Notes under the pieces: model-generated | Database searches by the model: none | Seen by the model: the letters and a program-made list of their open reading frames with translations, nothing else | Told to the model about the DNA's origin: nothing | Source: a virus | Reading direction: 5' to 3' (one strand) | Length of the DNA stretch: 64,000 bases | Virus record (IMG/VR): IMGVR_UViG_3300045988_142718 | Made by a program: the position numbers and the translations under genes | Part shown: piece by piece, positions 11,006 to 64,000 of the stretch | How positions within the stretch are numbered: position 1 is the first letter of the stretch | Layout: each line of letters begins with the position of its first letter

Positions 11006-11772
11006 GCCTGGTATATTTAAGGGAAAATGGTTTAGAAGGAATTGGTCGATTCTATTCTACTTACCGTGGAATAGTAATTAATAACGAGGATCCTTTAAAA
11101 CTTAATCGATTACAAATCGAAGTCCCAGATATAACTCAAACATTGGTTTGGGCTTATCCCAAAGGACAGCCTGGACCCTTGCAATCAGGAGCTAAGTATT
11201 TAACTCCAGAAATCAATGATGTAGTTTTCGTGGAATTCCAATCTGGAGACCCGAATTATCCTCTTTGGTCATACTGTGGATGGGCAAAAACTCAAGTACC
11301 ACCAGAATTAGAAAAGAAGGAAGTAATCGGAATAGTTACTCCAAATGGTAACAAAATATTTCTAGATGATGAAACAAACACTACGAAAATTTTGTTGAAG
11401 GTATCCGAGGATAAATTTCATGAGATTACATTGAGCCCAGAGGGTGTAATTATAAAAACTCCTACACCTATTACTCAAGAAACACAATCCACTTGGGACC
11501 AGACTGCAAAAGAGGATCATAATATCCGAGGAAAACTTGTGATATTCAATGATGGGGAAGTTGGTACAACGATGACAGATAAACTCCTTCAGAGATTAAA
11601 CAAGATTGAGGATGATATCAATAACCTTAAACTCGGATTAACTCAAGCAGCTGCAGTAGCTACTCCAATGGATGGAGGTAAAGCAGCATTCCTTTCTTTA
11701 GCTGGGTATGCTAATACACCATTGGTTAAAACAGTAATGGCTGATATCGAACATCAAACAGTAAAACAATGA
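11002..11772 (+). CDS. Baseplate central spike (gpV / gp5 OB-fold)
   Basis: YRGIVINNEDPLKLNRLQIEVP...NDVVFVEFQSGDPNYPLW matches the Phage_base_V/VgrG N-terminal motif. Confidence 0.8.
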   Translation: MSLVYLRENGLEGIGRFYSTYRGIVINNEDPLKLNRLQIEVPDITQTLVWAYPKGQPGPLQSGAKYLTPEINDVVFVEFQSGDPNYPLWSYCGWAKTQVPPELEKKEVIGIVTPNGNKIFLDDETNTTKILLKVSEDKFHEITLSPEGVIIKTPTPITQETQSTWDQTAKEDHNIRGKLVIFNDGEVGTTMTDKLLQRLNKIEDDINNLKLGLTQAAAVATPMDGGKAAFLSLAGYANTPLVKTVMADIEHQTVKQ

Positions 11773-12161
11773 GCGAAAATATATTGGAAAAGTCAATTGG
11801 TTCAGGGCCAACTTTTCCCATCCAACTAACAAGTGGTTCATGGAAACCCAAAAAAGGTTCATTGGAATTAATCGAAGATAACATTATCTCTATCCTGGTT
11901 TATCAAATCGGATTCAGATTAAGGCAAGAGATATTTGGTACTCGAAATTATGAATGCTTGGAAGAACCAAACATAAATGCAACTCGATTATTAGTATATC
12001 GATTTACTAAAGAAGCTATCGAAGCTTGGGAACCAAGAGTAAAACTTTTGGAAACCCAAATACAATTCACTCCTTCAGAAATACAGATTAGGTTAAGATA
12101 CCAAGTTTTAACTAATCAGATGGTTGGAGAACTTGATTTTTCATATCAAAAATCGGCATAG
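11769..12161 (+). CDS. Baseplate wedge protein gpW / gp25-like
   Basis: 130 aa. GSGPTFPI...IEDNIISIL...EIFGTRNYECLEEP...AIEAWEPRV fits the GPW_gp25 family pattern. Confidence 0.8.
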   Translation: MSENILEKSIGSGPTFPIQLTSGSWKPKKGSLELIEDNIISILVYQIGFRLRQEIFGTRNYECLEEPNINATRLLVYRFTKEAIEAWEPRVKLLETQIQFTPSEIQIRLRYQVLTNQMVGELDFSYQKSA

Positions 12162-12163
12162 TT

Positions 12164-13852
12164 ATGGCAATATTAAAGAATCCCTGGTTAGATGTTTTTT
12201 CGAGATCTTACCAATCAATCAAGAGCCAATTGGTTCAAAACATGAGAACTAAGTTGCCCGAAGTTACTGATTATTCTGAGGGTAACATTTTTATTATCTT
12301 ACTTTCCATGTGGTCTTCAGTAGCAGAAGTAATTCATTACTACTTGGATAACATGGCAAGGGAAACTTTCTTTATCTCAGCAAGAAGGTACTCATCCTTA
12401 GTTAAACATTCGAAGTTGGTGGATTATCACATTAAAGCAGCAATCCCAGCTTCTACTGATGTATTAATCCAAATCAATAATGGAGACATGGCTAAGGAAG
12501 ATTATATCATTCCTATTGGTACAACCTTTAATGGTACAAATGGATTAACATATATCTCCACAAAACAGAAAACTTTCTACAAAGATACCTATGGAGTTTA
12601 TGTCCCAGTAGAACAAAAAACATTGGTACCAGAAAAAGATCTTGGAGTAATCTCAGATCCCAATGCTATCATTTATATTGATGAAACAGATGGGTTCTAT
12701 GTTGAGGGTTCTGCAGTATTAAAACTTGGTGGAATTCTTTGGACTTTAGTAGAAACATTAGGATATTCTGGGCCTAATGATAAGCATTATATGGTAGAAT
12801 TAACTGAGGATCAAAAACCCTACATTGTATTTGGTGATGGGATGTATGGTGAAAAACCTGCAGTGAATTCCCCAATATTACTCAGCTACTTCATCACAAA
12901 AGGTGAAGCGGGTAATGATGCTGAGAATACCATTACCTCAGTAGATGGAGATCTTGGTATCAAGGACATGACTATCACAAATCCGAATAGAATTACTGGT
13001 GGTTCAAATTATGAAAACTTTGATATGCTAAAGGAACATGTTCCTTTAAACATCAGAACACTTGGAGTAGCAATCACCAAACAAGATTACATAGATGTAA
13101 CTAAACTTGCTCCTGGTGTAGATAAAGCATACATCGATTTTAGGTGTGGTAAATTTGTGGATATCTATATTATCCCAGATGGAGGAGGGGTTGCCTCGGA
13201 ATCTTTAAGGGATGCAACTTATCGATATGTTTCAAGTAAGAAAATCATCACTACAAATATCCGAGTATTACCTGCTGGTAGTTCCTATGTAGTTTTGAAC
13301 TTAACAGTAACTGGTATGCCATCATTAAGAAGTAATATTATTTCTGATGATATACTGAGAGCTTTGGTTCAGAATTATGATTACAGTAATTCGGATATCA
13401 ACAAGGTAATCAGATTATCCGATTTATATGCCCTCATCGATAATTTGAGTACAGTGGATTATCTTACTATCGATAGTATTTATACAATCCCTTACCCAAA
13501 CAAATCCGAGGACACAGAAACAGATTTAAATCTGAGTAACTTTAAAGTTAATTCCATAGAAGATGAAGTAAATTATACGATATCTTATTTGGAGAAAGAT
13601 ACCTTTACCATTGCTTCAGAATTTGGAGAAGTTTATTCTACTTTCCTTGGTTCTCCAATCACAATCATCTCAGAAAGTGCGGGAGTAAACTTTACATTCA
13701 CAATTGGTAATCCTTTATCTGGAGCTTACAAAATCGGAGATACTTGGGAAATGAAAGTGATACCAAATGGTAAAGACCAGATTATCAATGATTACTCAGT
13801 ACCAAGAATCATTGCAAGCAATGTACATATTAATGTAATCGAAACATCATGA
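12164..13852 (+). CDS. Baseplate protein J-like (gp6-like)
   Basis: 562 aa directly after gpW, matching the V-W-J-I order. Confidence 0.7.
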   Translation: MAILKNPWLDVFSRSYQSIKSQLVQNMRTKLPEVTDYSEGNIFIILLSMWSSVAEVIHYYLDNMARETFFISARRYSSLVKHSKLVDYHIKAAIPASTDVLIQINNGDMAKEDYIIPIGTTFNGTNGLTYISTKQKTFYKDTYGVYVPVEQKTLVPEKDLGVISDPNAIIYIDETDGFYVEGSAVLKLGGILWTLVETLGYSGPNDKHYMVELTEDQKPYIVFGDGMYGEKPAVNSPILLSYFITKGEAGNDAENTITSVDGDLGIKDMTITNPNRITGGSNYENFDMLKEHVPLNIRTLGVAITKQDYIDVTKLAPGVDKAYIDFRCGKFVDIYIIPDGGGVASESLRDATYRYVSSKKIITTNIRVLPAGSSYVVLNLTVTGMPSLRSNIISDDILRALVQNYDYSNSDINKVIRLSDLYALIDNLSTVDYLTIDSIYTIPYPNKSEDTETDLNLSNFKVNSIEDEVNYTISYLEKDTFTIASEFGEVYSTFLGSPITIISESAGVNFTFTIGNPLSGAYKIGDTWEMKVIPNGKDQIINDYSVPRIIASNVHINVIETS

Positions 13853-14841
13853 TAAACTTTCATGCTTTAATGGATTTACTCCCCTCTTATTTTAAAGCCT
13901 TCGATACTTACAAGGATCAAAATGATAAGGGAGTATTAGAAAGGTTCTTAGAATTAATCGGAGAATCTGTTGTTGATGATACTGATAGGAATTCATCGAT
14001 GTTGCCCAATATAGATAATATCCTTGACATCATCGATGTAGAAACTACCAGAGCGGGATTGCTCGATTATATCTATGATTTTTTAGGGGCTCCTCCACAA
14101 GAATATACTACTCCAGTAACAGAAGGAGAATTTTTACATAATCCTCCATTCTATGTATGGTACTTGGAATACAATGTTCAGTTGGAATATTCTACTAAAC
14201 TGGGATATAAACCAGAGAATGCTCAAAGGGTAGTAAAATACTACTCAGCTATTGACCGAAGGTTGATAAGGTATGTAGTATCCCTATATAAAATCCGAGG
14301 AACAGAAAAGTTCTACAGGGTATTACTTACTGCATATTTTAAACTTAAAGGTTACACATTAGAAGAGGAAAACTTATTAACCACTATCGTTGGTAAAGCA
14401 AGATATGATACATCATTAACATATGATAGCAATTATCAATACGATGGTGATTCCACAGATTGTAAAGCTTGCTCAAGTTACATCATTGATTTAACCTCAG
14501 TAGCCTCAACCCTTAAACCAGAAGAACAAGCTCGATTGGAAAGGGTGCTTGCTAAGTATGCTCCAATTAATGTTCAATTAATGGTTGCTTATGCTTTCTG
14601 TAATATTATCGTAAGTACACAGGGTCCATCCATCGAAGAGGGCATGGTGGTTGTTACTGGTAATACAGATAAAGCAGTAAGAGGATATGATCATACGGTT
14701 AGTATTTATTACGAATCCAATATCATATTCTTGGGCTGGTATGATAACCAAGGAACACTACTCTCTACAAGTTTTTCTTATACATTTAAAGTAACAGAAT
14801 CTACTCAAATCATTGCAAAATATGAAAGAGATGACTTATGA
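13849..14841 (+). CDS. Baseplate/tail protein I-like with a C-terminal B-repeat-like domain
   Basis: It lies after the J-like gene. The C-terminus FLGWYDNQGTLLSTSFSYTFKVTESTQIIAKY matches the repeat unit of the fibre gene. Confidence 0.5.
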   Translation: MINFHALMDLLPSYFKAFDTYKDQNDKGVLERFLELIGESVVDDTDRNSSMLPNIDNILDIIDVETTRAGLLDYIYDFLGAPPQEYTTPVTEGEFLHNPPFYVWYLEYNVQLEYSTKLGYKPENAQRVVKYYSAIDRRLIRYVVSLYKIRGTEKFYRVLLTAYFKLKGYTLEEENLLTTIVGKARYDTSLTYDSNYQYDGDSTDCKACSSYIIDLTSVASTLKPEEQARLERVLAKYAPINVQLMVAYAFCNIIVSTQGPSIEEGMVVVTGNTDKAVRGYDHTVSIYYESNIIFLGWYDNQGTLLSTSFSYTFKVTESTQIIAKYERDDL

Positions 14842-15452
14842 TATTATTACAACAAATTCAGGATATTGATAAACTAACCAAGGTATCTTTAGAACTTGCC
14901 GAAGCAGCATCTAATTATGGAGCATTAAAAATTATCTTTGGTGTCTTCATGGTGATGATGTTATTAATCGTATTGGTATTCGTATCCCAGTCAGTATTTT
15001 TAATCAAAAGGGTTCAAGGGATTTCCGATGTATCCGATAAAATTGATAATTATTTCGAAGGATTATCAGAATCCGATATTGGTAAGGAAGAAGCTAATTC
15101 GATGATTAGGGAAGTTCTAAATCGCAATTCAGTACTTATTAAGTATTATATAATCCGAGTAAGATCCGAGAACCATATTTCTGATAAAGAAAACACAGAA
15201 TTAAAAATTCAAAGGATCCTTAAAAATATCCATTCAGAAACTTCCACATTTTTAAATAAATTTCGATATAAGTCCAAACCTCTGGGAGTATACTTAGATG
15301 TAGAAACGGATACTGAAAATTTATTTAATCTGATGTTAGAGCAAATCTACATACCAAAAGAACATTTTCAATTATCTCAAATGGACCAATCAATCGAATT
15401 ATTTATGCAAGGTTTGAAACTGAATTATGTAACTAAAATAGAAAACTCATGA
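14838..15452 (+). CDS. Single-pass membrane protein (possible lysis accessory)
   Basis: Hydrophobic helix IIFGVFMVMMLLIVLVFVSQSVFLI. The gene overlaps the amidase start. Confidence 0.5.
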   Translation: MILLQQIQDIDKLTKVSLELAEAASNYGALKIIFGVFMVMMLLIVLVFVSQSVFLIKRVQGISDVSDKIDNYFEGLSESDIGKEEANSMIREVLNRNSVLIKYYIIRVRSENHISDKENTELKIQRILKNIHSETSTFLNKFRYKSKPLGVYLDVETDTENLFNLMLEQIYIPKEHFQLSQMDQSIELFMQGLKLNYVTKIENS

Positions 15453-24267: not shown

Positions 24268-25724
24268 ACACAGTTAAAATTACATTGACAGGAAATAAGG
24301 GGACTCTATCTGGGCCCCCTGTTTTGTTGAAAAAGGTCTATGATAGGCTTCGGATCAAACATCCTAATGCTTGGTATTTAATGCAAAGAACCCGGGGTAA
24401 ATGGGATGGGTATGTAAAATACCTCTCAGATTATGGGGACTTCCAAATAGGATTATTAAATCACATCTGTAAGCAATTAAAGGAATTAGATTCATCAGTA
24501 AAAATTATAATTCAAGATAACAGGTTAAAGTTACCAATTAAACCAAAGATGGTAACTAGATTAGGCAATTATCAATTAAGAGATATACAAAAAGATGTAA
24601 TCAAAAGCTTTATTAATAATTCTGTTGAGGGCCATCCTTTTTATATAGGTGTAATCAATGCAGCAACCAATAGCGGAAAAACACTTATCATGTCTGCTAT
24701 ACATGAGTGTTTTCAAAGGAAGTTGAGAACTTTAGTGATTATTAATAATTCCCAAATCTTTGCTCAAGCCAAAAAAGAATACAGGGAATATTTGCCTGGT
24801 GAAGATATTCAATTTATTCAAGGCAAAAATCTGAAATTTGGAAATTTCAATGTTGGGATGGTTCAAACAATGTCTCAGAAAATTAAAGAGATTCGAAATG
24901 AATTATCCAAGATTGATATTGTTTTGGTTGATGAAGCTGATGTTGCTGATAATAAACAATTCAAAACTGTGTTAAGTTATCTCTATAATGTTCGAATAAG
25001 ATTGGGATTATCCGGGAGTATTTATATGTCCAAATTAAAAAAGGACCTTATTCATAATATGAACCTTCGAAGTTTCTTTGGTGATGAGATCCATATTATT
25101 ACCAAACAAGATATGGTAAAGAAAGGATATTCTACACCGGTGATAATTAAGATCACAGAGGGAAACTCACATAATCCTCATTTAGTAGCGGATGGATGGC
25201 TCGATACATTTAAAAAGGCAGTTATAGAAGATCCAGTAGCAAAAAAGAAATCAGCTGAAAGAGTTTTATATAATATTAAATATAATCGACTACCAGCAAT
25301 TGTTGTTACTCGATTTATTGAACATGCGGAAAGTTTATATAAATATTATACTAATCACCCAGAACTCAAGGATTATAATATAAGGGTAATCGATCACACA
25401 TCGAAAAACCGAGAATCCATAATTAACCAATTTGCTCAGGGAAAAATCGATGTATTAATCACCACCTATATTATAAAGCGAGGTATAAATTTACCTTTAG
25501 CTGTTTATTTACAGAATGCAGCTGGCTCAGATTCAGAGGAAGATATTTCCCAAATCTGTGGTCGTATGGAAAGAACATTTAAAGGTAAAAAGAAATCCTA
25601 TCTCGATGATATGTATTATTATGGGCAATATTTAGAACGGCATAGTAAACATCGTATCAATTATTATATAAGGACTGGAATGAAAGTTATTAATCTTAAA
25701 AAGAAACGAAATGGAAAGCTATGA
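24264..25724 (+). CDS. SF2 DEAD/DEAH-box helicase (UvsW / type III Res-like)
   Basis: Motifs AATNSGKT (I), VLVDEADV (II), GLSGS (III) and QICGRMER (VI). The ATGA-coupled start at 24264 is preferred over 24243. Confidence 0.85.
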   Translation: MNTVKITLTGNKGTLSGPPVLLKKVYDRLRIKHPNAWYLMQRTRGKWDGYVKYLSDYGDFQIGLLNHICKQLKELDSSVKIIIQDNRLKLPIKPKMVTRLGNYQLRDIQKDVIKSFINNSVEGHPFYIGVINAATNSGKTLIMSAIHECFQRKLRTLVIINNSQIFAQAKKEYREYLPGEDIQFIQGKNLKFGNFNVGMVQTMSQKIKEIRNELSKIDIVLVDEADVADNKQFKTVLSYLYNVRIRLGLSGSIYMSKLKKDLIHNMNLRSFFGDEIHIITKQDMVKKGYSTPVIIKITEGNSHNPHLVADGWLDTFKKAVIEDPVAKKKSAERVLYNIKYNRLPAIVVTRFIEHAESLYKYYTNHPELKDYNIRVIDHTSKNRESIINQFAQGKIDVLITTYIIKRGINLPLAVYLQNAAGSDSEEDISQICGRMERTFKGKKKSYLDDMYYYGQYLERHSKHRINYYIRTGMKVINLKKKRNGKL

Positions 25725-29803: not shown

Positions 29804-32800
29804 ATGGGCAAACCAAAAACAAAATATCACATCTTGGAGAACGAGCAACAATTAGATATGTTAATTGATGCTTGTAAGAAAACTGGATATGCTTCGGTAG
29901 ACTTTGAGACTACTGGTAATCGAATATATAATAATGATTTTTATCCTACGATTTTAGGGGTATGCTTCGAACCAGGTAGGGCAGGAGTAATCCCTTTAGG
30001 TCATTTCGATTCGAAATTTAAAAAATCCTGGAAAACAAAGCTTCAGAAATTTGGAGAAGAAGTTATTGCTAACGAAAATATTGTTAAGGTTGCATGGAAT
30101 GCTAAATTTGATATGCAAGTATTTCACAAATATGGTATCTTTCATAAAGGTAGGTTATTTGATGGGATGCTTGCTAAATATGTTTTGGATGAGGCTAAGC
30201 CAAATGATCTAAAGTCCATGGTTAGAAGGTTCCTTCCTAAATTTGGAGATTACGAAGAAGATTACGAGGGATGTAATCTACCCTGGGATCAAAAACCTTT
30301 ATTAGGATTATCCCAGTACTGTGCTATAGATACTGATATGTGTTTAAGATTATTCCTATTCTTCGAAAAGAAGATGATGGATAAGAAATTCTATCATCTA
30401 TTCAGAAATCTTATTATGCCAGCTTCTAACCTATTAACAAAGGTAGAGACAAGAGGACAAAGACTTGATAAAGAATGGCATGGGAAATTAATGGGGGAAT
30501 ATCCAAGAAGGATACTAGAAGCAGAAACCAAGGTAAGAGCCCTTAAAAAGGTAAAGAGATTTGAGAAATCCCTCATCCAACAGAGATTGGATAAAGCAAT
30601 ATCGAAGATAGAAGAAGAGATCAGAGAATCTAAGAAAGTAATAAAAACATCAGATGATTCTCGAAAAATTGCTTCTGCTGAAAGGTCAATTAAAAATAGA
30701 GAAGAAAAGATTGCCAGATTAATGGCTGGAGAATTTAATACTAAATCAGAGAAAGCCATAATAGAACCCATAAATTTTGGGTCAGCTTCACAAATGACAC
30801 AACTCCTTTTCACTGATCCAAAAGGATTCAGATTTCCAGTAGTAAAATATACACAAAAAGATAAAAGGGATACCGATAACCCTTCTTCATCAGAAGCAGT
30901 ATTATTGGAATTACAAAAAACAGATAAAACTGGATTTATTGATACGCTTCTAGAATTAAGGGGACTTAAACAGATTAATAATATGTTTGTAAAGGGATTT
31001 GCAAACTTAGTTCAAGATGATGGCAGATTGCATCCAAAATTTAATATTCATGGTACTCGTACAGGGAGATTATCATCAGCAGACCCAAACAGTCAGCAGC
31101 TCCCCAGGGTTGCAACGGATCCAACAATTAGACGTTGTTTGGTTGCATCTCCAGGTAGACTCTATCTAATGATGGATTATAGCCAATGTATAGATGGGGA
31201 TTCTTATATCTTTTGTAATACCGGAATAAAGAAGTTAAAAGAGATTATTCCTGGGAAAGATAAAATTTGTATGATTGACCCCCAGCATAAAAACAAACAC
31301 CGAGTTCTCAATATAAAGGTTCTTGCAAATAAGGGTAAGGCAGAATGCCTAAGGATTACAACAAATACTGGTAGGCAACTGATATTAACAGAAGAACATC
31401 CAGTAAAAACTAAACAAGGATTTACATTAGCTAAAGACCTTAAATTAAATGGTACATTATATATCGAAAACTTATTCGGTACTAAATCTGTTGGTAGGCT
31501 TCTCATAAATTCAGATGAAGCATACATTGCGGGATTATTCTATGGTGATGGTCATTACCCTAAAGAAAAATCTGGTAAAAGAAAACCAACTGATATGTCC
31601 ATATTCTTTTCAACTGGATCGGACAGAGAGGAATTACAACCTTTACTGGATAATTACTTTGGTTGTGAATTCTATGGGCCAAAAAATACTTCAAGGGGTA
31701 TTAGAGGTCATAGTGATAAGGTTCTCTCTTTTTATAAGAAATACCCAAAGAAGGATTCTCATGAAATGGAAATCCCAAAGAGGATCCTAAAGTCGGACTT
31801 CGAATCCAAGATGAATTTTATTGGAGGTCAAATTGACTCAGATGGTTCTATTGGTAATGGTAGGTTTAGGTATACTTCTGCTTGTGAACCTTATATTCGA
31901 CAATTACAACTACTCTTTCAATCAGTTGGGTTTCATGGTATAATCAGAAGTACAACTACGATTTTAAATGAGAATGAGTATACAGAATATCATTTAATCG
32001 TAAATTATGGGTTATCCAGACTTAAGCCCTACTTGAGACTTAAAAGAAAAAAACAAGAAATTATTGATTGGGAATTGAGCAAACAATATGCCGTCCCTGC
32101 AAATAAAACCTCTCACTGTTCCACACAAAGAATACCTTTAGAAATTTATCAAGATTTGCCCAGAACTTCAGAATTTCATAAAACTTATAGGAATTCTTTA
32201 AGAAAGGGTAGACTTATACACAGTACATTAGAAACATATATTGATGAACTTTCTGAACTTGATTCTAGATGGTTGGATGTACATCATTTTATGTATGAGC
32301 AAATTACTAACATAGAAAAGGTTGGTAAACGAGAAGTATACGATATGGAAGTTGAAAACTTACATGAATTTAATCCCAATGGTATCCGGGTTCATAACTG
32401 TGAACTTAGACTAATGGCTCACCTATCAAAATGTAAAGGTTTGTTGGAAGCATTTGCAAAAGGTTGGGATCCTCACTTATCAGTAGCATGTAAAAAATAT
32501 GGAGTAAATTACGATGATATTTATCCAATATATAAAGATGAACAACATCCAGATTATACCACATGGAAAATTCGAAGAAAGCAAGCTAAGCACATTGTTT
32601 TCGGATGTATCTATCATATTGGTGCAGCTAAACTTGCAGAAGAACTTTCAGACCCAAAAACAGGGTTAGTAGTAACACCAAAAGAATCACAGGGATTCTT
32701 GGATGATTTTTTTAAGGACTTCCCAGAAGTAAAGAAGTTCATGGACAATCAGATGAAGTTTATCCATAAGCATGGATACATAAAAACATTATTCGGTAGA

Positions 32801-33307
32801 AAAAGAAGATGCCCAGAGATCTTTGGTGATAATCAGATGCAAATTGTAGCTGCTGAGAATGCCGCAATCAATACCCCATCACAGTCTGCTGCTTCTGATA
32901 TGGCATTGTTTACATCAATCCTAATTGATGAGCTCATTCAAAAAGGAGAATTTCCAGATTTACAAGAAGTAGGTACTGTCCATGACTCCATATATTTTGA
33001 TACATTACCTCAAGACATCAATCCAAAGACCGTATATCAACTTTGGGACATGGCAAGAAATCCCAGTACAAAAGAATGGTTCGGATTCCAAATCGATGAC
33101 ATAGATATGTCAATGGATTTCGAAGTAGGAAGGTCCCAGGGAGAAGAATTACCCTTTGCAGTGGGATATGATTATAATCGATTATTAAATTTCAAAGGGG
33201 AATGGAAAGGGTCCAAGGAAGAAGAATATTATTTTTCACTGGTAAACAAATGTAAATCAGTAGATATCAAGGACTATCCAAAGGTTTACCCAGAGTATTT
33301 CAAGTGA
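29804..33307 (+). CDS. polA: Family A DNA polymerase with 3'-5' exonuclease, intein-interrupted
   Basis: Exo motifs SVDFETTG, NAKFDMQV and YCAIDTD. Motif A is DYSQ|intein|CELRLMAH, motif B is RRKQAKHIVFGCIYHIG and motif C is TVHDS. Confidence 0.9.
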   Translation: MGKPKTKYHILENEQQLDMLIDACKKTGYASVDFETTGNRIYNNDFYPTILGVCFEPGRAGVIPLGHFDSKFKKSWKTKLQKFGEEVIANENIVKVAWNAKFDMQVFHKYGIFHKGRLFDGMLAKYVLDEAKPNDLKSMVRRFLPKFGDYEEDYEGCNLPWDQKPLLGLSQYCAIDTDMCLRLFLFFEKKMMDKKFYHLFRNLIMPASNLLTKVETRGQRLDKEWHGKLMGEYPRRILEAETKVRALKKVKRFEKSLIQQRLDKAISKIEEEIRESKKVIKTSDDSRKIASAERSIKNREEKIARLMAGEFNTKSEKAIIEPINFGSASQMTQLLFTDPKGFRFPVVKYTQKDKRDTDNPSSSEAVLLELQKTDKTGFIDTLLELRGLKQINNMFVKGFANLVQDDGRLHPKFNIHGTRTGRLSSADPNSQQLPRVATDPTIRRCLVASPGRLYLMMDYSQCIDGDSYIFCNTGIKKLKEIIPGKDKICMIDPQHKNKHRVLNIKVLANKGKAECLRITTNTGRQLILTEEHPVKTKQGFTLAKDLKLNGTLYIENLFGTKSVGRLLINSDEAYIAGLFYGDGHYPKEKSGKRKPTDMSIFFSTGSDREELQPLLDNYFGCEFYGPKNTSRGIRGHSDKVLSFYKKYPKKDSHEMEIPKRILKSDFESKMNFIGGQIDSDGSIGNGRFRYTSACEPYIRQLQLLFQSVGFHGIIRSTTTILNENEYTEYHLIVNYGLSRLKPYLRLKRKKQEIIDWELSKQYAVPANKTSHCSTQRIPLEIYQDLPRTSEFHKTYRNSLRKGRLIHSTLETYIDELSELDSRWLDVHHFMYEQITNIEKVGKREVYDMEVENLHEFNPNGIRVHNCELRLMAHLSKCKGLLEAFAKGWDPHLSVACKKYGVNYDDIYPIYKDEQHPDYTTWKIRRKQAKHIVFGCIYHIGAAKLAEELSDPKTGLVVTPKESQGFLDDFFKDFPEVKKFMDNQMKFIHKHGYIKTLFGRKRRCPEIFGDNQMQIVAAENAAINTPSQSAASDMALFTSILIDELIQKGEFPDLQEVGTVHDSIYFDTLPQDINPKTVYQLWDMARNPSTKEWFGFQIDDIDMSMDFEVGRSQGEELPFAVGYDYNRLLNFKGEWKGSKEEEYYFSLVNKCKSVDIKDYPKVYPEYFK
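31187..32398 (+). mobile_element. Class 1 intein with LAGLIDADG homing endonuclease in Pol A motif A
   Basis: 404 codons. It starts CIDGDSYIF, has block B LILTEEHPV and ends GIRVHN, followed by Cys+1. LAGLIDADG boxes are YIAGLFYGDGHY and FIGGQIDSDGSI. Excision restores DYSQ-CELR. Confidence 0.85.
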
Positions 33308-35573: not shown

Positions 35574-37847
35574 ATGGCAAAGAAAGTAAAGATAGGGATA
35601 AAGGTCCCAACATCCAGCGAGCTTAATAGAAGGTATGGGAATTTATTAATTAATCCCAGTACACAAGAAAGACCCAAGTTATGGTTACCCTCAAGATTCT
35701 TAGCTTTAAATTATCAGTATGGTGGAGGAATCCCTTTTGGTAAGATACTGGAAGTCATGGGCCAAGAATCAAGTGGGAAAGCAGTTCCTTTGGATTCTCC
35801 AGTTTTAACCCCTACTGGATATAAATTAATGGGAGAATTATCTCTATCAGATAAAGTAATGGACCCAGTTTCTGGGGATCCAATCTCCATTATTGGAATA
35901 TACCCTCAAGGGTTAAAACGAGTATACAAGGTTACATTTAGAGATGGTGCTTCAGCAGAATGCTCAGAGGATCATTTATGGGAAGTACAATTCAGATCTC
36001 ACAATCAGTATAAGTCTCAAGTATTAACCCTAAAAGAGATTTTAGAAAAAGGGTACAGAACAAAAAGGGCTTCTGGTAAAGGTAAATTTAAATATAAATA
36101 TAACATACCAAGTACCATACCGTTAAACTTTGAAAAAAAAGAGTTACCCATTCATCCATATATATTGGGATACATATTAGGTGATGGAGGTTTAGGTAGA
36201 GCAAATTATATTATGTTTAATATTGGATTAGAAGATGCTGATTCATTTAAACATAATATTTCTAAGTTCCTTAAAGAAGGGGCTGAATTAGAAGATAAGG
36301 GCATCTATGAAAATCCATTTGGGAAAACTCATAGATTTATCTTAAAGGGGTATTCAAAGGAAATAAGATCCTTATGCTTAGAGGGGAAATTATCCTCAGA
36401 TAAGTTTATCCCGGAAGATTACCTTTGGTCTTCAGTAGAAGATAGGAAGTACTTATTATCGGGATTACTTGATTCTGATGGTACTATTGGTGAACAGCAC
36501 AATCGAGCAAAATACTCCTCACGATTTAAGTTCTCATCCACTTCTTCAAAGATGATAAAACAGTTAGTACAAGTAGTACGATCACTTGGGGGATTTATAA
36601 CAGAACCAAAATCGAAGGTTCGAGAACGTCAGTTCGAGGGTTATGAAAAAAGAATTTCAAAGGAGATTAGAACTGGAGGTAGATTGCCATTTAATCCATT
36701 CATGTTAGAGAGAAAAAGAAAACAGTATCAAGTAAAAATAGAGAACCAAACCAAATCCGCTAATTATAGAAGGTCCATTATCGATATCTCATATATTGGT
36801 AAAAAAGAATGTCAATGTATAAAGGTAAGTTCTGAAAGAGGGTTATTCATGTTGAATGATTTCATTGTTACTCATAATACTCTGGTAGCTTATGACTTTG
36901 CATATTGTACCCAACAATTGGGAGGCCATGTTATTTGGGTTGATGCCGAGCAATCTTGGGATAATTCATGGGCAGAACAAAACGGAATAGAATTGGATAA
37001 AGTTACAATCATCAGTTCAACCGAGATAGAAACAATTTCTGATGCTATTGCCGATTTATCCATTCTATGGAGAAGCAAGTTAACTCATAATGAACCAATC
37101 CTTCTAGTAGTGGATTCTATAGCTGCTATGGACTGTACAGAAAACATTAATATAAAAATGACCGATTGTAAAGCCGAGATGGGGGGCAGAGCTAAGGCAT
37201 TGTATAAAATGTTTAGGATCAGAACAGAACTTCTCTCTAAGCTGGGCATCACTCAAATTTATATCAATCAATTAAGGGTAGCTTTAAATGTGGGATTTGG
37301 TCAAGATAACACTACTTCAACTGGAGGGAAAGCTCTTGGATTCTATGCTTCTATCCGTTCTGCATTTTATGCTGGAAAACAAGTTACTAAAAAGGTAAAG
37401 GGTAAAGAAAGAAAGGTAGGGAAGTTAGTAAGTATACGCCCAATTAAGAACAAGGTATCACCCTTGAGGAATACAATCTCTAAAGCTCCCATATATTTCA
37501 ATCCAAAATACGTTGAATATGTGGGTTTTGATAGATATCATGGATTTGCAGATATTCTGGTTGAAGAAGACGTATTGGAGAAAACCTCTGGAGGCATCTA
37601 TAAGTATAAGGGAAAAACAGTTGCAAGAGGTGAAGAGAAATTTCAATCTGTAGTAGAAGAGGATGATAAGCTTAGAAGAAAATTGATTAAAGCTTGTGGA
37701 ATAAACACTATCAGTGTTACCCAGAGTAAAATTGATGAGCTTGTAGAAAAGGGTATAAACCTCTTCCCAGTAGATGGAAATTTGGATTATGAATCTCAAT
37801 CCGATGATTCAGAAGATGAAGAAGAGGAAGAAGAATTCGAAGATTAA
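35574..37847 (+). CDS. recA: RecA-family recombinase, intein-interrupted
   Basis: GGIPFGKILEVMGQESSGK|intein|TLVAYDF. Other RecA motifs are VDAEQS, LLVVDSIAAM, YINQLR, TTSTGGKALGFYASIR and IKNKVSP. The C-terminal tail is acidic. Confidence 0.9.
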   Translation: MAKKVKIGIKVPTSSELNRRYGNLLINPSTQERPKLWLPSRFLALNYQYGGGIPFGKILEVMGQESSGKAVPLDSPVLTPTGYKLMGELSLSDKVMDPVSGDPISIIGIYPQGLKRVYKVTFRDGASAECSEDHLWEVQFRSHNQYKSQVLTLKEILEKGYRTKRASGKGKFKYKYNIPSTIPLNFEKKELPIHPYILGYILGDGGLGRANYIMFNIGLEDADSFKHNISKFLKEGAELEDKGIYENPFGKTHRFILKGYSKEIRSLCLEGKLSSDKFIPEDYLWSSVEDRKYLLSGLLDSDGTIGEQHNRAKYSSRFKFSSTSSKMIKQLVQVVRSLGGFITEPKSKVRERQFEGYEKRISKEIRTGGRLPFNPFMLERKRKQYQVKIENQTKSANYRRSIIDISYIGKKECQCIKVSSERGLFMLNDFIVTHNTLVAYDFAYCTQQLGGHVIWVDAEQSWDNSWAEQNGIELDKVTIISSTEIETISDAIADLSILWRSKLTHNEPILLVVDSIAAMDCTENINIKMTDCKAEMGGRAKALYKMFRIRTELLSKLGITQIYINQLRVALNVGFGQDNTTSTGGKALGFYASIRSAFYAGKQVTKKVKGKERKVGKLVSIRPIKNKVSPLRNTISKAPIYFNPKYVEYVGFDRYHGFADILVEEDVLEKTSGGIYKYKGKTVARGEEKFQSVVEEDDKLRRKLIKACGINTISVTQSKIDELVEKGINLFPVDGNLDYESQSDDSEDEEEEEEFED
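35781..36878 (+). mobile_element. Intein with LAGLIDADG endonuclease in the RecA Walker A loop, with class 3-like signature
   Basis: 366 codons. It starts AVPLDSPVLTPTG (Ala1), has block B GASAECSEDHLW and block F ECQCIKV, and ends IVTHN with Thr+1. LAGLIDADG boxes are YILGYILGDGGL and LLSGLLDSDGTI. Confidence 0.8.
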
Positions 37848-58040: not shown

Positions 58041-58076
58041 TTATATTTGCATTGTAATATTAATCATATAAAAAAT
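58041..58076 (+). repeat. 36-bp promoter-leader cassette, copy 1
   Basis: ttatatttgcattgtaatattaatcatataaaaaat is identical to 61051-61086. Confidence 0.95.
58042..58051 (+). promoter_or_regulatory. -7 box TATATTTGCA
   Basis: 33 nt upstream of the ATG at 58085. Confidence 0.65.
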
Positions 58077-61050: not shown

Positions 61051-61086
61051 TTATATTTGCATTGTAATATTAATCATATAAAAAAT
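61051..61086 (+). repeat. 36-bp promoter-leader cassette, copy 2
   Basis: Identical to 58041-58076. Confidence 0.95.
61052..61061 (+). promoter_or_regulatory. -7 box TATATTTGCA
   Basis: 34 nt upstream of the ATG at 61096. Confidence 0.65.
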
Positions 61087-61503: not shown

Positions 61504-61596
61504 TGCTAGCCTGTTCGATACATCGAATACTAATTATCTTATGAAAATAAATCTTAATCATACTCAATAGGAATATTACTCTAATCAAATCTGTAT

Positions 61597-62553: not shown

Positions 62554-62568
62554 AAAAAGAAAAAATAA

Positions 62569-62593
62569 AAGAGTGCATAATATTTGCACTCTT
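62569..62593 (+). terminator. Hairpin
   Basis: 9-bp stem aagagtgca / tgcactctt with a 7-nt loop and a weak T tail. Confidence 0.5.
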
Positions 62594-62603
62594 ATTCCTT
62601 ATA

Positions 62604-62611
62604 TATATTTG
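62604..62611 (+). promoter_or_regulatory. -7 box TATATTTG with no ORF downstream
   Basis: It lies between two terminators. Only about 65 nt separate it from the end of the next terminator. Confidence 0.4.
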
Positions 62612-62642
62612 GTGTTGCTGTAATTCATAAATAATAATAAAG

Positions 62643-62682
62643 AGAGTATATTTTTGTCCCCTATAAAATATACTCTTTTTTT
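62643..62682 (+). terminator. Intrinsic terminator
   Basis: 12-bp stem agagtatatttt / aaaatatactct followed by tttttt. Confidence 0.85.
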
Positions 62683-62689
62683 GCTTTAA

Positions 62690-63015
62690 TGGGCAACCCT
62701 TCCCCTCTCTTATTCATATAAGATTTTTCGATAAAGCCTATAAGGGATTTCCTTCATTTCCCTTCTTCCTTTAGGATTGCCACAACTTTTTTCTGAAAAC
62801 ACAATAAGGGATTTCATTTAAATCTTTGAATTATATTACCCTTACATATCTTTTGTATTCATATTGGATTTTTATGATATGATTATTCGATGAGATGTTA
62901 TCCTTTATTTCATTTGTTTATCCTTTATTGGGATTCAAGGTTTTTTATCCCTTATGCTTTATCACATTAGGATTTTTATTTTTCATTTTATGTTTGTTTG
63001 TTTGGGGACTCTTAC
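62690..63015. repeat. T-rich non-coding block of the same unit family as arm C
   Basis: tttatgtttgtttgtttgggg is the complement of cccaaa(c)aaacaaacataaa, similar to 59539-59558. GGATT and TTCGATGAG motifs are also present. Confidence 0.55.
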
Positions 63016-63053
63016 AATAAAGGCCCAAGATAAAAATACCCCAGGCCTTTATT
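63016..63053 (-). terminator. Hairpin downstream of the minus-strand fibre-like gene
   Basis: 10-bp stem aataaaggcc / ggcctttatt with an 18-nt loop and no clear U-run. Confidence 0.4.
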
Positions 63054-63067
63054 ATTAATCACTAAGG
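63053..63067 (+). repeat. 15-bp direct repeat TATTAATCACTAAGG, copy 1
   Basis: Identical to 63938-63952. Confidence 0.9.
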
Positions 63068-63073
63068 ATTTTT

Positions 63074-63661
63074 TTAATCTACTGGGCTCTTTCCAGCTTT
63101 TAATACGTACCCAGTAAATGAAAAGTTATATCTACCAGTATTAACTGCAGTGATATTTACACTTTCAAGAAATAATACGTTTTCTACCCATGGGTATCCA
63201 TTTTTCATACTGGTTGAACTACCGTATCCCGAAAAGTATGAAAATAAATCTTCTGATAAATTATAAATACATAATCCATTATTGCCATCTATGGGCATAG
63301 CATATGTTACGATTACTACCAGATCACCTTTATGGAAGCTTTCATTGATTTGATTTAAGGCTGATTGGATACTGTCTAAAGTGCAATTTACTTTTATGGA
63401 GACTGTGGATTTATTTGGAGCCATAACCATCTTTCTAGCGGTTTCATTAGTATCCAACTGGGTACTGAAGATAGAACCTTTTCCTATTAATTCTTTGTAC
63501 TTATCTCCAGATGGGATGCTTTCGATTCCCAATCTTAGGGCTTCAAAGGATGGCTGAGATCCTGGGTCTACCCCTTTATTTCTCAGAGCATCCCTTAAAT
63601 TGGTTTTTGCTTGGTTGATGGATGATGTTAATGATTGGATCCTTTCTTTCAATGTAGGCAT
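63074..63661 (-). CDS. Tail-fibre/receptor-binding-like protein (reverse-oriented)
   Basis: The N-terminus LKERIQSLTSSINQAKTNLRDALRNKGVDPGSQPSFEALRLGIESI resembles the common fibre N-terminal module (xAKxxIxxAIxxKGVxV...F...I). Confidence 0.5.
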   Translation of the reverse strand: MPTLKERIQSLTSSINQAKTNLRDALRNKGVDPGSQPSFEALRLGIESIPSGDKYKELIGKGSIFSTQLDTNETARKMVMAPNKSTVSIKVNCTLDSIQSALNQINESFHKGDLVVIVTYAMPIDGNNGLCIYNLSEDLFSYFSGYGSSTSMKNGYPWVENVLFLESVNITAVNTGRYNFSFTGYVLKAGKSPVD

Positions 63662-63734
63662 GATGTGTAGGGATTAAAATTAATGATGAATATTAAAAAG
63701 ATTAATAATGTGTTTATACTATAAACACATTCGA

Positions 63735-63872
63735 TTACATCTCGTTATTGTGAGATGAAGAAGTTTTTTTTTGGTTCTTTATTGATCCTTTATTTAATGA
63801 TATGGATCTCAATAATGTTTTTGCATTACTGATTTGTGTAGTTAGAGCTTCAATTCTTGATTTGAGTGACAT
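63735..63872 (-). pseudogene. 45-codon fragment paralogous to the N-terminus of the ORF at 63074-63661
   Basis: MSLKSRIEALTTQISNAKTLLRSISLNKG compared with MPTLKERIQSLTSSINQAKTNLRDALRNKG. It then runs into low-complexity sequence and a stop. Confidence 0.35.
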
Positions 63873-63883
63873 ATTCGTGATGT

Positions 63884-63943
63884 ATTAAAGTTAATATTAT
63901 AAGATTAAAGTTAATATTATAAGATAGTATCTTATAATATTAA
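63884..63943. promoter_or_regulatory. Operator-like cluster: a 20-bp tandem duplication plus a 33-bp perfect palindrome
   Basis: attaaagttaatattataag occurs twice (63884-63923). ttaatattataagata-g-tatcttataatattaa spans 63911-63943. The cluster lies between divergent paralogous starts. Confidence 0.6.
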
Positions 63944-63952
63944 TCACTAAGG
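63938..63952 (+). repeat. 15-bp direct repeat TATTAATCACTAAGG, copy 2
   Basis: Identical to 63053-63067. Confidence 0.9.
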
Positions 63953-63962
63953 CAATAATACA

Positions 63963-64000
63963 ATGAGTTTAACATCAAGAATTCAGGATCAAAAAGATCA
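63963..64000 (+). CDS. Start of a third paralogous fibre-like gene, truncated by the window end
   Basis: The ATG at 63963 encodes MSLTSRIQDQKD..., the same N-terminal motif on the + strand. Confidence 0.4.
   Translation, partial: MSLTSRIQDQKD

What the first reader, a model, noticed from the sequence alone, without database searches (positions are those of the whole stretch)
63053..63952. Reverse-oriented fibre-like gene cassette bounded by 15-bp direct repeats
TATTAATCACTAAGG occurs at 63053-63067 and 63938-63952. Between the copies, everything is on the minus strand:
- A 195-aa protein with a fibre-type N-terminus (MPTLKERIQSLTSSINQAKTNLRDALRNKGV...).
- A 45-codon fragment with a paralogous N-terminus (MSLKSRIEALTTQISNAKTLLRSISLNKG...).
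- A palindromic control region.

Eleven nt after the right repeat, a + strand gene starts with the same motif (MSLTSRIQDQKD...). Deleting one repeat and the intervening 885 bp would place that + strand gene directly after the hairpin at 63016-63053. The block therefore looks like an inserted, or recombinationally exchangeable, alternative receptor-binding module in inverted orientation, with a decayed extra copy.
Basis: partly seen in the sequence, partly recalled or inferred. Interest (0 to 1): 0.65.

Follow-up and report, generated by a model that had tools for sequence, protein, structure and literature searches.

The report
Variable three-paralog locus in gut phage
The flagged block is not a mobile cassette cut out at its 15-bp repeats: it is part of a fast-evolving, often partly deleted trio of related genes of unknown function, found only in one very common human-gut Bacteroides phage lineage.

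Summary
These are the exact 15-mer at 63053 and 63938, a 195-aa minus-strand gene (P1), a 45-codon fragment, palindromes, and a + strand gene starting at 63963.

The window is a ~80 kb Flandersviridae-like human-gut phage. A contig 100% identical to the window shows the + strand gene (P3) is intact at 398 aa.

P1, P2 and P3 share a ~50-aa heptad-helix N-terminal module joined to unrelated beta-rich C-terminal domains. They have no homologues outside this lineage. The 45-codon ORF is a deletion remnant of P2, which is 183-186 aa and intact in many relatives.

The mobile-cassette reading fails.
- In 29 related genomes, most found through the flanking gene rather than the block, none has an empty site or an inversion.
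- The predicted empty-site junction is absent from IMG/VR and the metagenome collection.
- No recombinase is present.
- Every rearrangement seen breaks inside the N-module homology or at microhomologies, never at the 15-mers.
- The left 15-mer is lost in three genomes.
- The right 15-mer is the P3 promoter/leader and is built into the 33-bp palindrome.
- More distant family members also carry a minus-strand gene block in this slot, with unrelated genes.

P1 evolves fast (dN/dS ~0.57, against 0.12 or less for neighbours). Its function is unproven; modular binding proteins are the best guess. Interest is modest.

The parts
63016..63053 (-). Hairpin terminator of the minus-strand P1 transcript. 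In most relatives it is bidirectional and also ends the + strand early unit.
   Evidence: Minus-strand RNA folds at -25.3 kcal/mol (z -4.7). The + strand fold is only -11.8 (z -0.8) in the window. In relative L001 both strands fold at about -26 to -27 (z about -7).
63053..63067 (+). Left copy of the 15-mer. It lies in the A/T-rich spacer between the hairpin and the P1 stop codon, which is the P1 3' UTR on the minus strand.
   Evidence: Exact match. Present in most relatives, but largely deleted in L004, L029 and L023 and carrying a G>A change in about 6 others.
63074..63661 (-). P1: a 195-aa protein with an N-terminal ~50-aa heptad-helix module and a lineage-specific mixed alpha/beta C-terminal domain.
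   Evidence: ORF. 2639 clusters at 90% identity, all from this lineage. No family hit. dN/dS about 0.57.
63707..63731 (.). 12-1-12 palindrome between the P2 stub and the P1 start. It is specific to the stub allele and may be a hairpin or operator.
   Evidence: I25. Fold -9.5 kcal/mol, z -3.2. Absent from the full-length P2 allele.
63735..63872 (-). P2 stub: a 45-codon remnant of a 183-186 aa paralog. The first 29 codons are the N-module and the rest is read from former downstream DNA.
   Evidence: Alignment with the full-length allele of L020 and with the other deletion alleles. The same stub is in L027, L030 and L033.
63884..63923 (.). Exact 20-bp tandem duplication in the P2/P3 intergenic control region. 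It is specific to the window allele.
   Evidence: D6. Relatives carry a single copy.
63911..63943 (.). Perfect 16-1-16 palindrome carrying mirrored promoter-like hexamers (TTAATA-16-TATAAT) for divergent P2 and P3 transcription.
   Evidence: I6. Promoter scan gives 10 of 12 matches on both strands. No TAnnTTTG early box lies upstream of P1, P2 or P3.
63938..63952 (+). Right copy of the 15-mer. Its first base is the last T of the TATAAT-like hexamer, its first 6 nt are the outer end of the palindrome's right arm, and the rest is the P3 leader.
   Evidence: The 9-mer TATTAATCA lies 22-29 nt upstream of six + strand start codons.
63963..64000 (+). 5' end of P3. It is complete at 398 aa in a contig identical to the window, and consists of the N-module plus an all-beta, possibly propeller-like, domain.
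   Evidence: L010 is 100% identical to the window over 2944 nt and extends it. Only 15 homologous clusters, all at 85% identity or more. AF2 pLDDT 47, with Foldseek hits all beta-propellers but TM below 0.25.

Best explanation
The block is two thirds of a lineage-specific locus of three paralogs. The locus sits in the accessory-gene slot between the ~20-kb block of unknown genes and the methylase/terminase module of a Flandersviridae-like Bacteroides phage.

**Proteins**
- The paralogs are P1 (195 aa, -), P2 (183-186 aa, -; here a 45-codon deletion stub) and P3 (398 aa, +).
- They share a ~50-aa N-terminal module: a 3.5-heptad amphipathic helix, a KGV turn and a short second helix.
- This module is joined to three C-terminal beta-rich domains with no detectable similarity to each other.

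**Transcription (inferred)**
- P2 and P3 are transcribed divergently from a mirrored promoter inside a 33-bp palindrome.
- P1 has its own upstream region and ends at the 63016-63053 hairpin.

**The 15-mers**
- They are not recombination sites today.
- The right copy is the P3 promoter edge and leader, and belongs to a recurrent TATTAATCA leader word.
- The left copy lies in the dispensable spacer between the P1 stop and its terminator.
- It is most simply a relic of an old duplication of promoter-leader DNA. This genome shows such duplications elsewhere.

**Population variation**
- Variation arises by homologous recombination inside the N-module coding DNA, giving P2N-P1C fusions.
- It also arises by several independent microhomology deletions of P2 and P3.

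**Function (inferred, not shown)**
- The paralogs are probably oligomeric modular binding proteins that share one docking or oligomerisation helix and carry different binding domains.
- My odds are about 40% accessory virion-attached binders (fibre or decoration-like), about 35% non-structural host-interaction or counter-defence proteins, and the rest other.
For: **Context and completeness**
- P3 is complete in a contig identical to the window.
- Phage context: PolA and RecA-like genes carrying intein/homing-endonuclease domains, a tape-measure protein, TAnnTTTG promoters and ~80-kb human-gut contigs. This organisation matches the Flandersviridae description (PMC8008677).

**The protein family**
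- N-module paralogy.
- Heptad a/d residues L-I-L-I-A-L-A.
- C-terminal domains show no similarity by profile comparison.
- The N-module occurs only at this locus in the window, in the flanks and in a 115-kb record.

**Allele states in 29 genomes**
- All three paralogs intact: 4
- P1+P2 intact: 10
- P1+P3 intact with P2 stub: 3
- P2N-P1C fusion plus P3: 4
- P1 only: 4
- P2 only: 3
- None intact: 1

**Breakpoints and evolution**
- Breakpoints lie at homology or microhomology.
- P1 and P3 are 88-90% identical between strains, against 96-100% for the immediate neighbours.
- P1 dN/dS is 0.57, against 0.00-0.12 for neighbours.
- The P2 C-terminal domain is about twice as variable as its N-module.

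**Relatives and regulatory elements**
- Relatives with 62-71% TerL identity lack the family and the 15-mer. They hold other minus-strand genes between the conserved 171-aa gene homologue and the methylase.
- Mirrored promoter and terminator.
Against: - Function rests on architecture only. No homologue, no confident structure (pLDDT 34 and 47) and no expression or proteome data.
- P1 vs P3 similarity is not significant pairwise. The HMM that links them was built from all three, so that support is circular.
- High dN/dS together with recurrent loss fits decay of dispensable genes as well as diversifying selection.
- The origin of the left 15-mer is not explained by direct evidence.
- All close relatives are 82% or more identical in DNA, so conservation of the 15-mers says nothing about constraint.
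Confidence: 0.6

Rival explanations
1. The 870-bp P1-P2 block is an inserted or excisable cassette, and the 15-mers are its target-site duplication or recombination sites. Excision would place P3 directly after the terminator.
For: - An exact 15-nt direct repeat (17 of 18 nt) flanks precisely the minus-strand block.
- The whole paralog family is absent from more distant relatives, so it was acquired at some point.
- Given the shared 9-mer, identity over 6 more bases is unlikely by chance (my rough estimate is about 0.02).
Against: - 0 of 29 genomes has an empty site or the opposite orientation.
- The empty-site junction pattern gives no hit in IMG/VR or the metagenome contigs.
- No resolvase was found. 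The only tyrosine recombinases lie in a part of a 115-kb contig with no counterpart in the window.
- None of the 8 or more distinct rearrangements uses the 15-mers.
- The first 6 nt of the right copy complete a perfect palindrome with DNA that would belong to the 'insert'. A passive duplicated target would not be expected to do that.
- The slot carries minus-strand genes across the family.
- 15-nt repeats within 2 kb are expected about 0.9 times per window.
Confidence: 0.08
2. The 15-mer pair is a functional cis/trans RNA element. P1 and P3 are on opposite strands, so the P1 3' UTR carries the exact complement of the P3 5' leader at -25 to -11. P1 mRNA could therefore pair with the P3 leader and block or modulate its translation, coupling expression of the paralogs.
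For: - A perfect 15-bp intermolecular duplex is possible (-17.1 kcal/mol over the 13 bp included in the test; shuffles average -6.5).
- The complement lies mostly unpaired between the stop codon and the terminator stem.
- The common left-copy variant (G>A) would keep a G-U pair.
- I recall that Bacteroidota translation depends on unstructured A/U-rich leaders. This was not checked here.
Against: - The complementarity follows automatically from the direct repeat, so it is not independent evidence.
- The left copy is deleted in L004, which keeps an intact P3.
- Both copies persist unchanged in genomes where P3 is deleted.
- Transcription start sites and 3' ends are unmapped.
Confidence: 0.07
3. 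The 15-mer repeat is pure coincidence of A/T-rich regulatory vocabulary, with no shared history or function.
For: - Simulations give 0.89 such repeats per window.
- Another 16-mer pair of no evident meaning exists at 61540 and 63237.
- TATTAATCA is an over-represented word.
- The 15-mer occurs once each in about 40 unrelated IMG/VR contigs.
Against: - Extension from the 9-mer word to 15 (17 of 18) identical bases is improbable.
- This genome demonstrably duplicates promoter-leader segments: 36 bp around 58057 and 61067 are identical.
Confidence: 0.2

Closest known systems
Modular receptor-binding proteins of lactococcal siphophages (TP901-1 BppL, p2 ORF18), recalled from memory and not tested here
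   Same: Small proteins of about 160-260 aa. A short conserved N-terminal helical stem that oligomerises and docks is joined to interchangeable beta-rich heads. Head swapping occurs by recombination in the conserved 5' part.
   Different: No sequence or reliable structural similarity was found. P1-P3 lie outside the tail module and two are on the opposite strand with their own promoters. The N-module is shared with no virion gene. Virion association is unknown.
Multi-tailspike sets of Ackermannviridae (e.g. CBA120 TSP1-4), recalled from memory. Flandersviridae TerL branches next to this family (PMC8008677)
   Same: Several paralogous binding proteins per genome, with conserved N-terminal docking parts and different C-terminal domains. 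Strain-to-strain presence/absence occurs.
   Different: Tailspikes are 600 to over 1000 aa, encoded in the structural block and carry recognisable domains. P1-P3 are 186-398 aa orphans.
Invertible tail-fibre segments (Mu G / P1 C with Gin/Cin) and shufflons
   Same: Alternative C-terminal modules encoded in opposite orientations.
   Different: Those systems need inverted repeats, a serine invertase and one shared constant part with a single promoter. Here the repeats are direct and no resolvase is present. Each paralog has its own N-module and promoter, and 0 of 29 genomes shows inversion.
Phage morons and hyperplastic regions with repeated promoter/stem-loop cassettes (e.g. PeSLs of T4-type phages), recalled from memory
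   Same: Lineage-specific genes with their own promoter-like sequence and terminator sit between conserved modules. Short regulatory words are repeated at cassette edges. Gain and loss are frequent.
   Different: No evidence that the repeated word mediates recombination here. The function of the genes is unknown.

Membership tests
Mobile or excisable cassette bounded by a target-site duplication or att-like direct repeats | Direct repeats at both ends | tested here: met
   Exact 15-mer at 63053 and 63938.
Mobile or excisable cassette bounded by a target-site duplication or att-like direct repeats | Empty-site alleles with one repeat copy exist in relatives | tested here: not met
   0 of 29 genomes. 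The junction pattern is absent from IMG/VR and the metagenome contigs.
Mobile or excisable cassette bounded by a target-site duplication or att-like direct repeats | A recombinase or transposase is encoded in or near the element | tested here: not met
   The block holds only P1 and the P2 stub. PF00239 is absent. PF00589 hits lie only in contig DNA with no counterpart in the window.
Mobile or excisable cassette bounded by a target-site duplication or att-like direct repeats | The same element is found at other sites or in other genomes | tested here: not met
   The N-module and P1 are found only at this locus of this lineage. Other IMG/VR contigs with the 15-mer carry a single, unrelated copy.
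Invertase-driven tail-fibre switch (Gin/Cin type) | Inverted repeats flank the segment, and a serine invertase is present | tested here: not met
   The repeats are direct and no resolvase-family gene was found.
Invertase-driven tail-fibre switch (Gin/Cin type) | Both orientations are seen in the population | tested here: not met
   P1 and P2 are always on the minus strand and P3 always on the plus strand relative to the flanking gene in 29 assemblies. Read-level testing was not possible.
Phage tail fibre / receptor-binding protein | Homology to a known fibre, spike or RBP domain | tested here: not met
   No hits in Pfam, PHROGs, NCBIfam or PDB sequences. Hits to giant cadherin-repeat proteins and PPR repeats are repeat-summed artefacts.
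Phage tail fibre / receptor-binding protein | The N-terminal anchor is shared with, or fits, other virion proteins, and the gene lies in the tail module | tested here: not met
   The N-module is absent from all other ORFs. The locus is about 3.5 kb upstream of TerL, not in the tail block.
Phage tail fibre / receptor-binding protein | Oligomeric (usually trimeric) coiled-coil or beta-helical stem with a beta-rich distal domain | tested here: inconclusive
   A 3.5-heptad a/d pattern is present. The N-terminal helix is predicted at pLDDT about 80 and the rest of P3 is all-beta at low confidence. Foldseek hits are all beta-propellers but with TM below 0.25.
Phage tail fibre / receptor-binding protein | Presence in purified virions, or an effect on host range | not testable with these tools
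   No proteome or isolate data are available.
Moron-type autonomous accessory transcription unit | Own promoter and terminator, lineage-specific, and variably present | tested here: met
   Promoter-like mirrored hexamers and a strong terminator hairpin are present at sequence level only. The genes are absent from relatives with TerL identity of 71% or less. Presence/absence alleles exist.

The most novel reading that the evidence does not exclude
The direct repeat works at the RNA level. It sits in the 3' UTR of the leftward P1 mRNA and in the 5' leader of the rightward P3 mRNA, so the two messages are perfectly complementary over 15 nt just upstream of the P3 start codon. P1 expression would then silence or time P3 translation. 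That would be a 3'UTR-to-leader antisense switch choosing between alternative modular binding proteins in one of the commonest human-gut phages.
Probability: 0.07. Interest if true: 0.6.

Novelty: new member of a known kind. Interest (0 to 1): 0.3.

Why it matters
Flandersviridae-like phages are among the most prevalent human-gut viruses, and about 20 kb of their genome is unannotated (PMC8008677). This locus is a strain-level diversity hotspot. It holds three orphan proteins with one shared N-terminal helix and different beta-rich domains. They evolve about five or more times faster (dN/dS) than their neighbours and are lost independently many times.

Such genes are prime candidates for host-range, adhesion or counter-defence determinants, and they could serve as strain markers.

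The practical result for this scan is negative. The 15-bp repeats do not mark a mobile cassette.

Tried and rejected
- **Public phage records:** megablast and tblastn against INPHARED phages gave no match for the locus or for P1.
- **Nearest held record:** G001 lacks the region because it is a 61.6-kb fragment.
- **Family libraries:** Pfam, PHROGs, NCBIfam and PADLOC gave nothing for P1-P3 or for the neighbouring 139-, 251-, 68- and 171-aa proteins. The only neighbour hit was the HNH homing endonuclease.
- **phmmer of P1 against 1.8 billion representatives:** it found only its own family plus three giant cadherin-repeat proteins. I rejected those as repeat-summed noise, because a designed PPR repeat protein gives the same kind of hit in the PDB.
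- **N-module search (P2 residues 1-55):** it found only P2 orthologues.
- **AlphaFold2:** P1 from a single sequence gave pLDDT 34. P3 with a 13-sequence alignment gave pLDDT 47. The Foldseek hits are not reliable.
- **Conservation of the 15-mers:** uninformative, because the flanks are equally conserved.
- **P3 dN/dS:** invalid, because indels shifted the unaligned codons. I discarded it.
- **P2-intact vs P3-intact anticorrelation:** not significant (Fisher p=0.12), and the samples are not phylogenetically independent.
- **Rfam and tRNA scans of 61.5-64 kb:** nothing found.
Full report
**1. Observation**

The sequence is as described.
- TATTAATCACTAAGG occurs exactly at 63053-63067 and 63938-63952. 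The only other near-match has 2 mismatches, on the minus strand at 24730. The repeat extends to 17 of 18 nt.
- Between the copies lie a 195-aa minus-strand ORF (P1, 63074-63661) and a 45-codon minus-strand ORF (63735-63872).
- Also between or overlapping them are a 12-1-12 palindrome (63707-63731), a 20-bp exact tandem duplication (63884-63923) and a perfect 16-1-16 palindrome (63911-63943).
- A + strand ORF starts at 63963, which is 10 nt after the repeat, not 11.

**2. Is the repeat more than chance?**

The per-motif shuffle test gives 0 of 100, but it does not correct for having searched the whole window. I simulated windows with the same local second-order composition. On average 0.89 exact direct repeats of 15 nt or more fall within 2 kb, and 61% of simulated windows have at least one. 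The real window contains another pair of no evident meaning, a 16-mer at 61540 and 63237.

Against pure chance, the first 9 nt (TATTAATCA) are an over-represented word: 9 copies against 3.1 expected. Six of those copies lie 22-29 nt upstream of + strand start codons. Six further identical bases are unlikely; my rough estimate is about 0.02. This genome also duplicates promoter-leader DNA elsewhere, with 36 identical bp around 58057 and 61067. I conclude that the two copies probably share ancestry. The repeat by itself says nothing about mobility.

**3. What the genome is**

The window encodes several phage hallmark genes.
- A tape-measure protein.
- A 986-aa Listeria-Bacteroides-repeat protein.
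- PolA interrupted by an intein.
- A RecA-like protein with homing-endonuclease (LAGLIDADG) domains.
- A long run of small + strand genes.

Thirteen of those + strand genes are preceded by the Bacteroidota -7 box TAnnTTTG. Related contigs are human-gut assemblies of about 78-84 kb. The order is structural block, then PolA replication block, then about 20 kb of unknown ORFs, then TerL. This matches the published description of the candidate family Flandersviridae, with predicted Bacteroides/Parabacteroides hosts (PMC8008677). I did not build a tree.

**4. Beyond base 64000**

The exact P1 protein is encoded on a Logan contig (L010) that is 100% identical to the window over 2944 nt and extends it by 9.6 kb. 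There the + strand gene (P3) is complete at 398 aa. It is followed in order by:
- a 139-aa minus-strand gene
- an HNH homing endonuclease
- a DNA methylase
- small genes
- TerL, carrying an intein
- the portal gene

**5. The gene family**

P1, the 45-codon ORF and P3 share an N-terminal module of about 50 aa.
- P1 vs P2 is significant (45% over 47 aa, E=7e-10).
- P2 vs P3 is marginal (E=0.004).
- P1 vs P3 is not significant pairwise.
- P2 and P3 also share a mirrored 16-nt promoter arm, and their first codons are similar at DNA level.

The module has hydrophobic residues in a 4-3-4-3 spacing (L-I-L-I-A-L-A), giving a 3.5-heptad amphipathic helix. This is followed by a KGV turn and a short second helix. 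AF2 predicts the first helix at pLDDT about 80.

The C-terminal parts show no detectable similarity to each other by profile-profile comparison. An HMM of the module finds it nowhere else in the window, in the flanks of relatives or in a complete 115-kb record.

None of the three proteins hits Pfam, PHROGs, NCBIfam, PADLOC or PDB sequences. P1 has 2639 clusters at 90% identity, all near-identical orthologues. P3 has only 15 clusters, all at 85% identity or more. A full phmmer scan of 1.8 billion representatives adds only repeat-summed hits to giant cadherin-repeat proteins. I regard these as noise, because a designed PPR protein scores the same way.

The label 'fibre-type N-terminus' is therefore unverified.

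**6. The 45-codon fragment**

Relatives carry a full-length second minus-strand paralog, P2, of 183-186 aa. The window allele keeps its first 29 codons. It then joins, at an AAAGG microhomology, to DNA that lies downstream of the P2 stop in the full-length allele. 'Decayed extra copy' is correct.

**7. Test of the cassette model**

I sampled relatives two ways: through P1 itself in IMG/VR, and, without bias towards the block, through the conserved 171-aa gene on the left flank.

Counting the window and its identical extension L010 as one genome, 29 genomes cover the locus.

| Allele state | Genomes |
|---|---|
| P1, P2 and P3 all intact | 4 |
| P1+P2 intact, P3 deleted or truncated | 10 |
| P1+P3 intact, P2 stub | 3 |
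| P2N-P1C fusion plus P3 | 4 |
| P1 only | 4 |
| P2 only | 3 |
| None intact | 1 |

None has terminator, single 15-mer and P3. None has the block inverted. A degenerate pattern for the predicted empty-site junction found nothing in IMG/VR or in the metagenome collection.

The rearrangements that do exist use other breakpoints.
- The fusions join window 63610 to 63816, inside the N-module coding homology.
- The common P3 deletion, seen in 15 loci, joins ...AAAGAT|GATAAAG....
- L021, L038, L001, L006, L007 and L009 carry further independent deletions.

The left 15-mer is itself largely deleted in L004, L029 and L023, and carries a G>A change in about six others. The right copy has a 1-nt insertion in L003.

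No resolvase-family gene was found. The two tyrosine recombinases in one 115-kb contig lie in DNA with no counterpart in the window. The 15-mer occurs as single copies in about 40 unrelated IMG/VR contigs, as expected for an A/T-rich 15-mer in a large collection.

There is also a geometric argument. The first 6 nt of the right copy form the outer end of the right arm of the perfect palindrome, and the left arm lies inside the supposed insert. A passively duplicated target would not be expected to do that.

**8. Orientation is not evidence of insertion**

In family members with 62-71% TerL identity, the left-flank gene, the methylase and the 251-aa gene are conserved. The interval between them always contains a block of minus-strand genes unrelated to P1-P3. 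These relatives have no N-module ORF and no 15-mer. The slot is a family-wide accessory region transcribed leftward, and P1-P3 are its occupants in this lineage.

**9. Regulatory anatomy (inferred from sequence)**

- The 33-bp palindrome contains mirrored TTAATA-16-TATAAT hexamers (10 of 12 matches on each strand).
- The right 15-mer begins at the last T of the + strand TATAAT. It would therefore span the start and leader of the P3 mRNA.
- None of P1, P2 or P3 has the TAnnTTTG early box within 75 nt. They are probably not in the same temporal class as the early units.
- The hairpin at 63016-63053 is a strong structure only on the minus-strand RNA in this window (-25.3 kcal/mol, z -4.7, against -11.8, z -0.8). 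It is followed by UUUAUUGU, which makes it the P1 terminator.
- In relatives the hairpin is strong on both strands.
- The left 15-mer is the spacer between the P1 stop codon and this hairpin.

**10. Evolutionary behaviour**

- Between strains, P1 is 88% and P3 90% identical in protein. The immediate neighbours are 96.5-100% identical.
- P1 dN/dS is about 0.57 along its whole length. The 171-, 148- and 139-aa genes and the methylase are at 0.00-0.12.
- The C-terminal domain of P2 is about twice as variable as its N-module and shows many length variants.
- With at least five independent P2 losses and at least three P3 losses, this is either diversifying selection on host-interaction proteins or relaxed constraint on dispensable ones.
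- 28 of 29 genomes keep at least one intact paralog.

**11. Function**

Two AlphaFold2 runs failed to give confident models: P1 at pLDDT 34 and P3 at pLDDT 47. The Foldseek hits of the P3 model are uniformly beta-propellers, but TM-scores are below 0.25. This is only a hint.

The architecture is one shared oligomerisation or docking helix with interchangeable beta-rich domains. That is how small modular receptor-binding proteins are built. Other modular binders share the same plan.

- For a virion role: the position just upstream of the packaging and structural block, the lack of an early promoter box, and retention of at least one copy.
- Against a virion role: the N-module is shared with no virion gene, no homology was found, the slot holds unrelated cargo in sister genera, and gene loss is frequent.

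My odds are about 40% accessory virion-attached binders, about 35% non-structural host-interaction or counter-defence proteins, and 25% other.

**12. Boldest reading not excluded**

P1 and P3 are on opposite strands, so the direct repeat makes the P1 3' UTR exactly complementary to the P3 leader. The duplex is -17.1 kcal/mol over the part tested. This could be an antisense link between paralogs. There is no independent support, and L004 keeps an intact P3 without the left copy. I put it at about 7%.

**13. Verdict**

The N-terminal paralogy and the decayed copy are confirmed. The receptor-binding function remains untested.

What is there is a new orphan protein family in a known kind of locus: a hypervariable accessory slot of a very common gut phage.

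Noticed in passing
window 62554-63015: About 460 nt without a convincing ORF lie between the 171-aa gene's terminator (62569-62593) and the P1 terminator. The stretch holds direct repeats of TTTTTC..ATAAGGGATTTC (62724-62754 and 62788-62818) and recurring TATCCTTTATT and GGATTTTTAT words. No Rfam hit.
   Followed up: partly
window 29804-33307, 35574-37847; L010 2478-4985: PolA carries an intein with a LAGLIDADG domain, and the RecA-like protein has homing-endonuclease (Hom_end/LAGLIDADG) domains. TerL is 835-844 aa with an intein and HNH domain in some strains and 498-501 aa without it in others.
   Followed up: partly
L010 7331-7864 (just beyond the window end): A free-standing HNH homing-endonuclease gene between the 139-aa gene and the methylase is present in only about 6 of the sampled genomes. 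The indel is clean (reference coordinates 1853 to 2618).
   Followed up: partly
window about 58041-58076 and 61051-61086: A 36-bp promoter-leader segment (TATATTTGCATTGTAATATTAATCATATAAAAAAT) is identical upstream of two different genes. The TATTAATCA word lies 22-29 nt upstream of six + strand start codons.
   Followed up: partly
window 61540 and 63237: The exact 16-mer TATGAAAATAAATCTT is repeated 1.7 kb apart, with the second copy inside the P1 coding region. It is probably chance, and it shows how weak a lone 15-16-mer repeat is in this DNA.
   Followed up: no
L024, L031, L032, L022, L001 etc., P3 remnant (about 70-85 nt after the right 15-mer): The A-run in CAAGTAAAAAAAGAT, next to the common P3 deletion junction, varies from 5 to 8 A between genomes. 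It is a slippage-prone homopolymer.
   Followed up: no
IMG/VR contig IMGVR_UViG_3300045988_160889 (G002), 11133-15020: This 115-kb contig is rated 100% complete but is about 35 kb longer than sister genomes. It carries two tyrosine recombinase genes with no counterpart in the window. It may be a chimeric assembly or contain extra non-phage DNA.
   Followed up: partly
relatives L100, L103, L105, L106, L099 (upstream of the methylase): Sister genera carry other genes in the same slot: a conserved minus-strand Cys-rich 160-240 aa protein (CxxC...CxxC), a 124-140 aa protein, and a 171-202 aa + strand gene. From its sequence I guessed the + strand gene is a muramidase-like lysis gene. It was not scanned, and no counterpart was seen in this lineage.
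   Followed up: no
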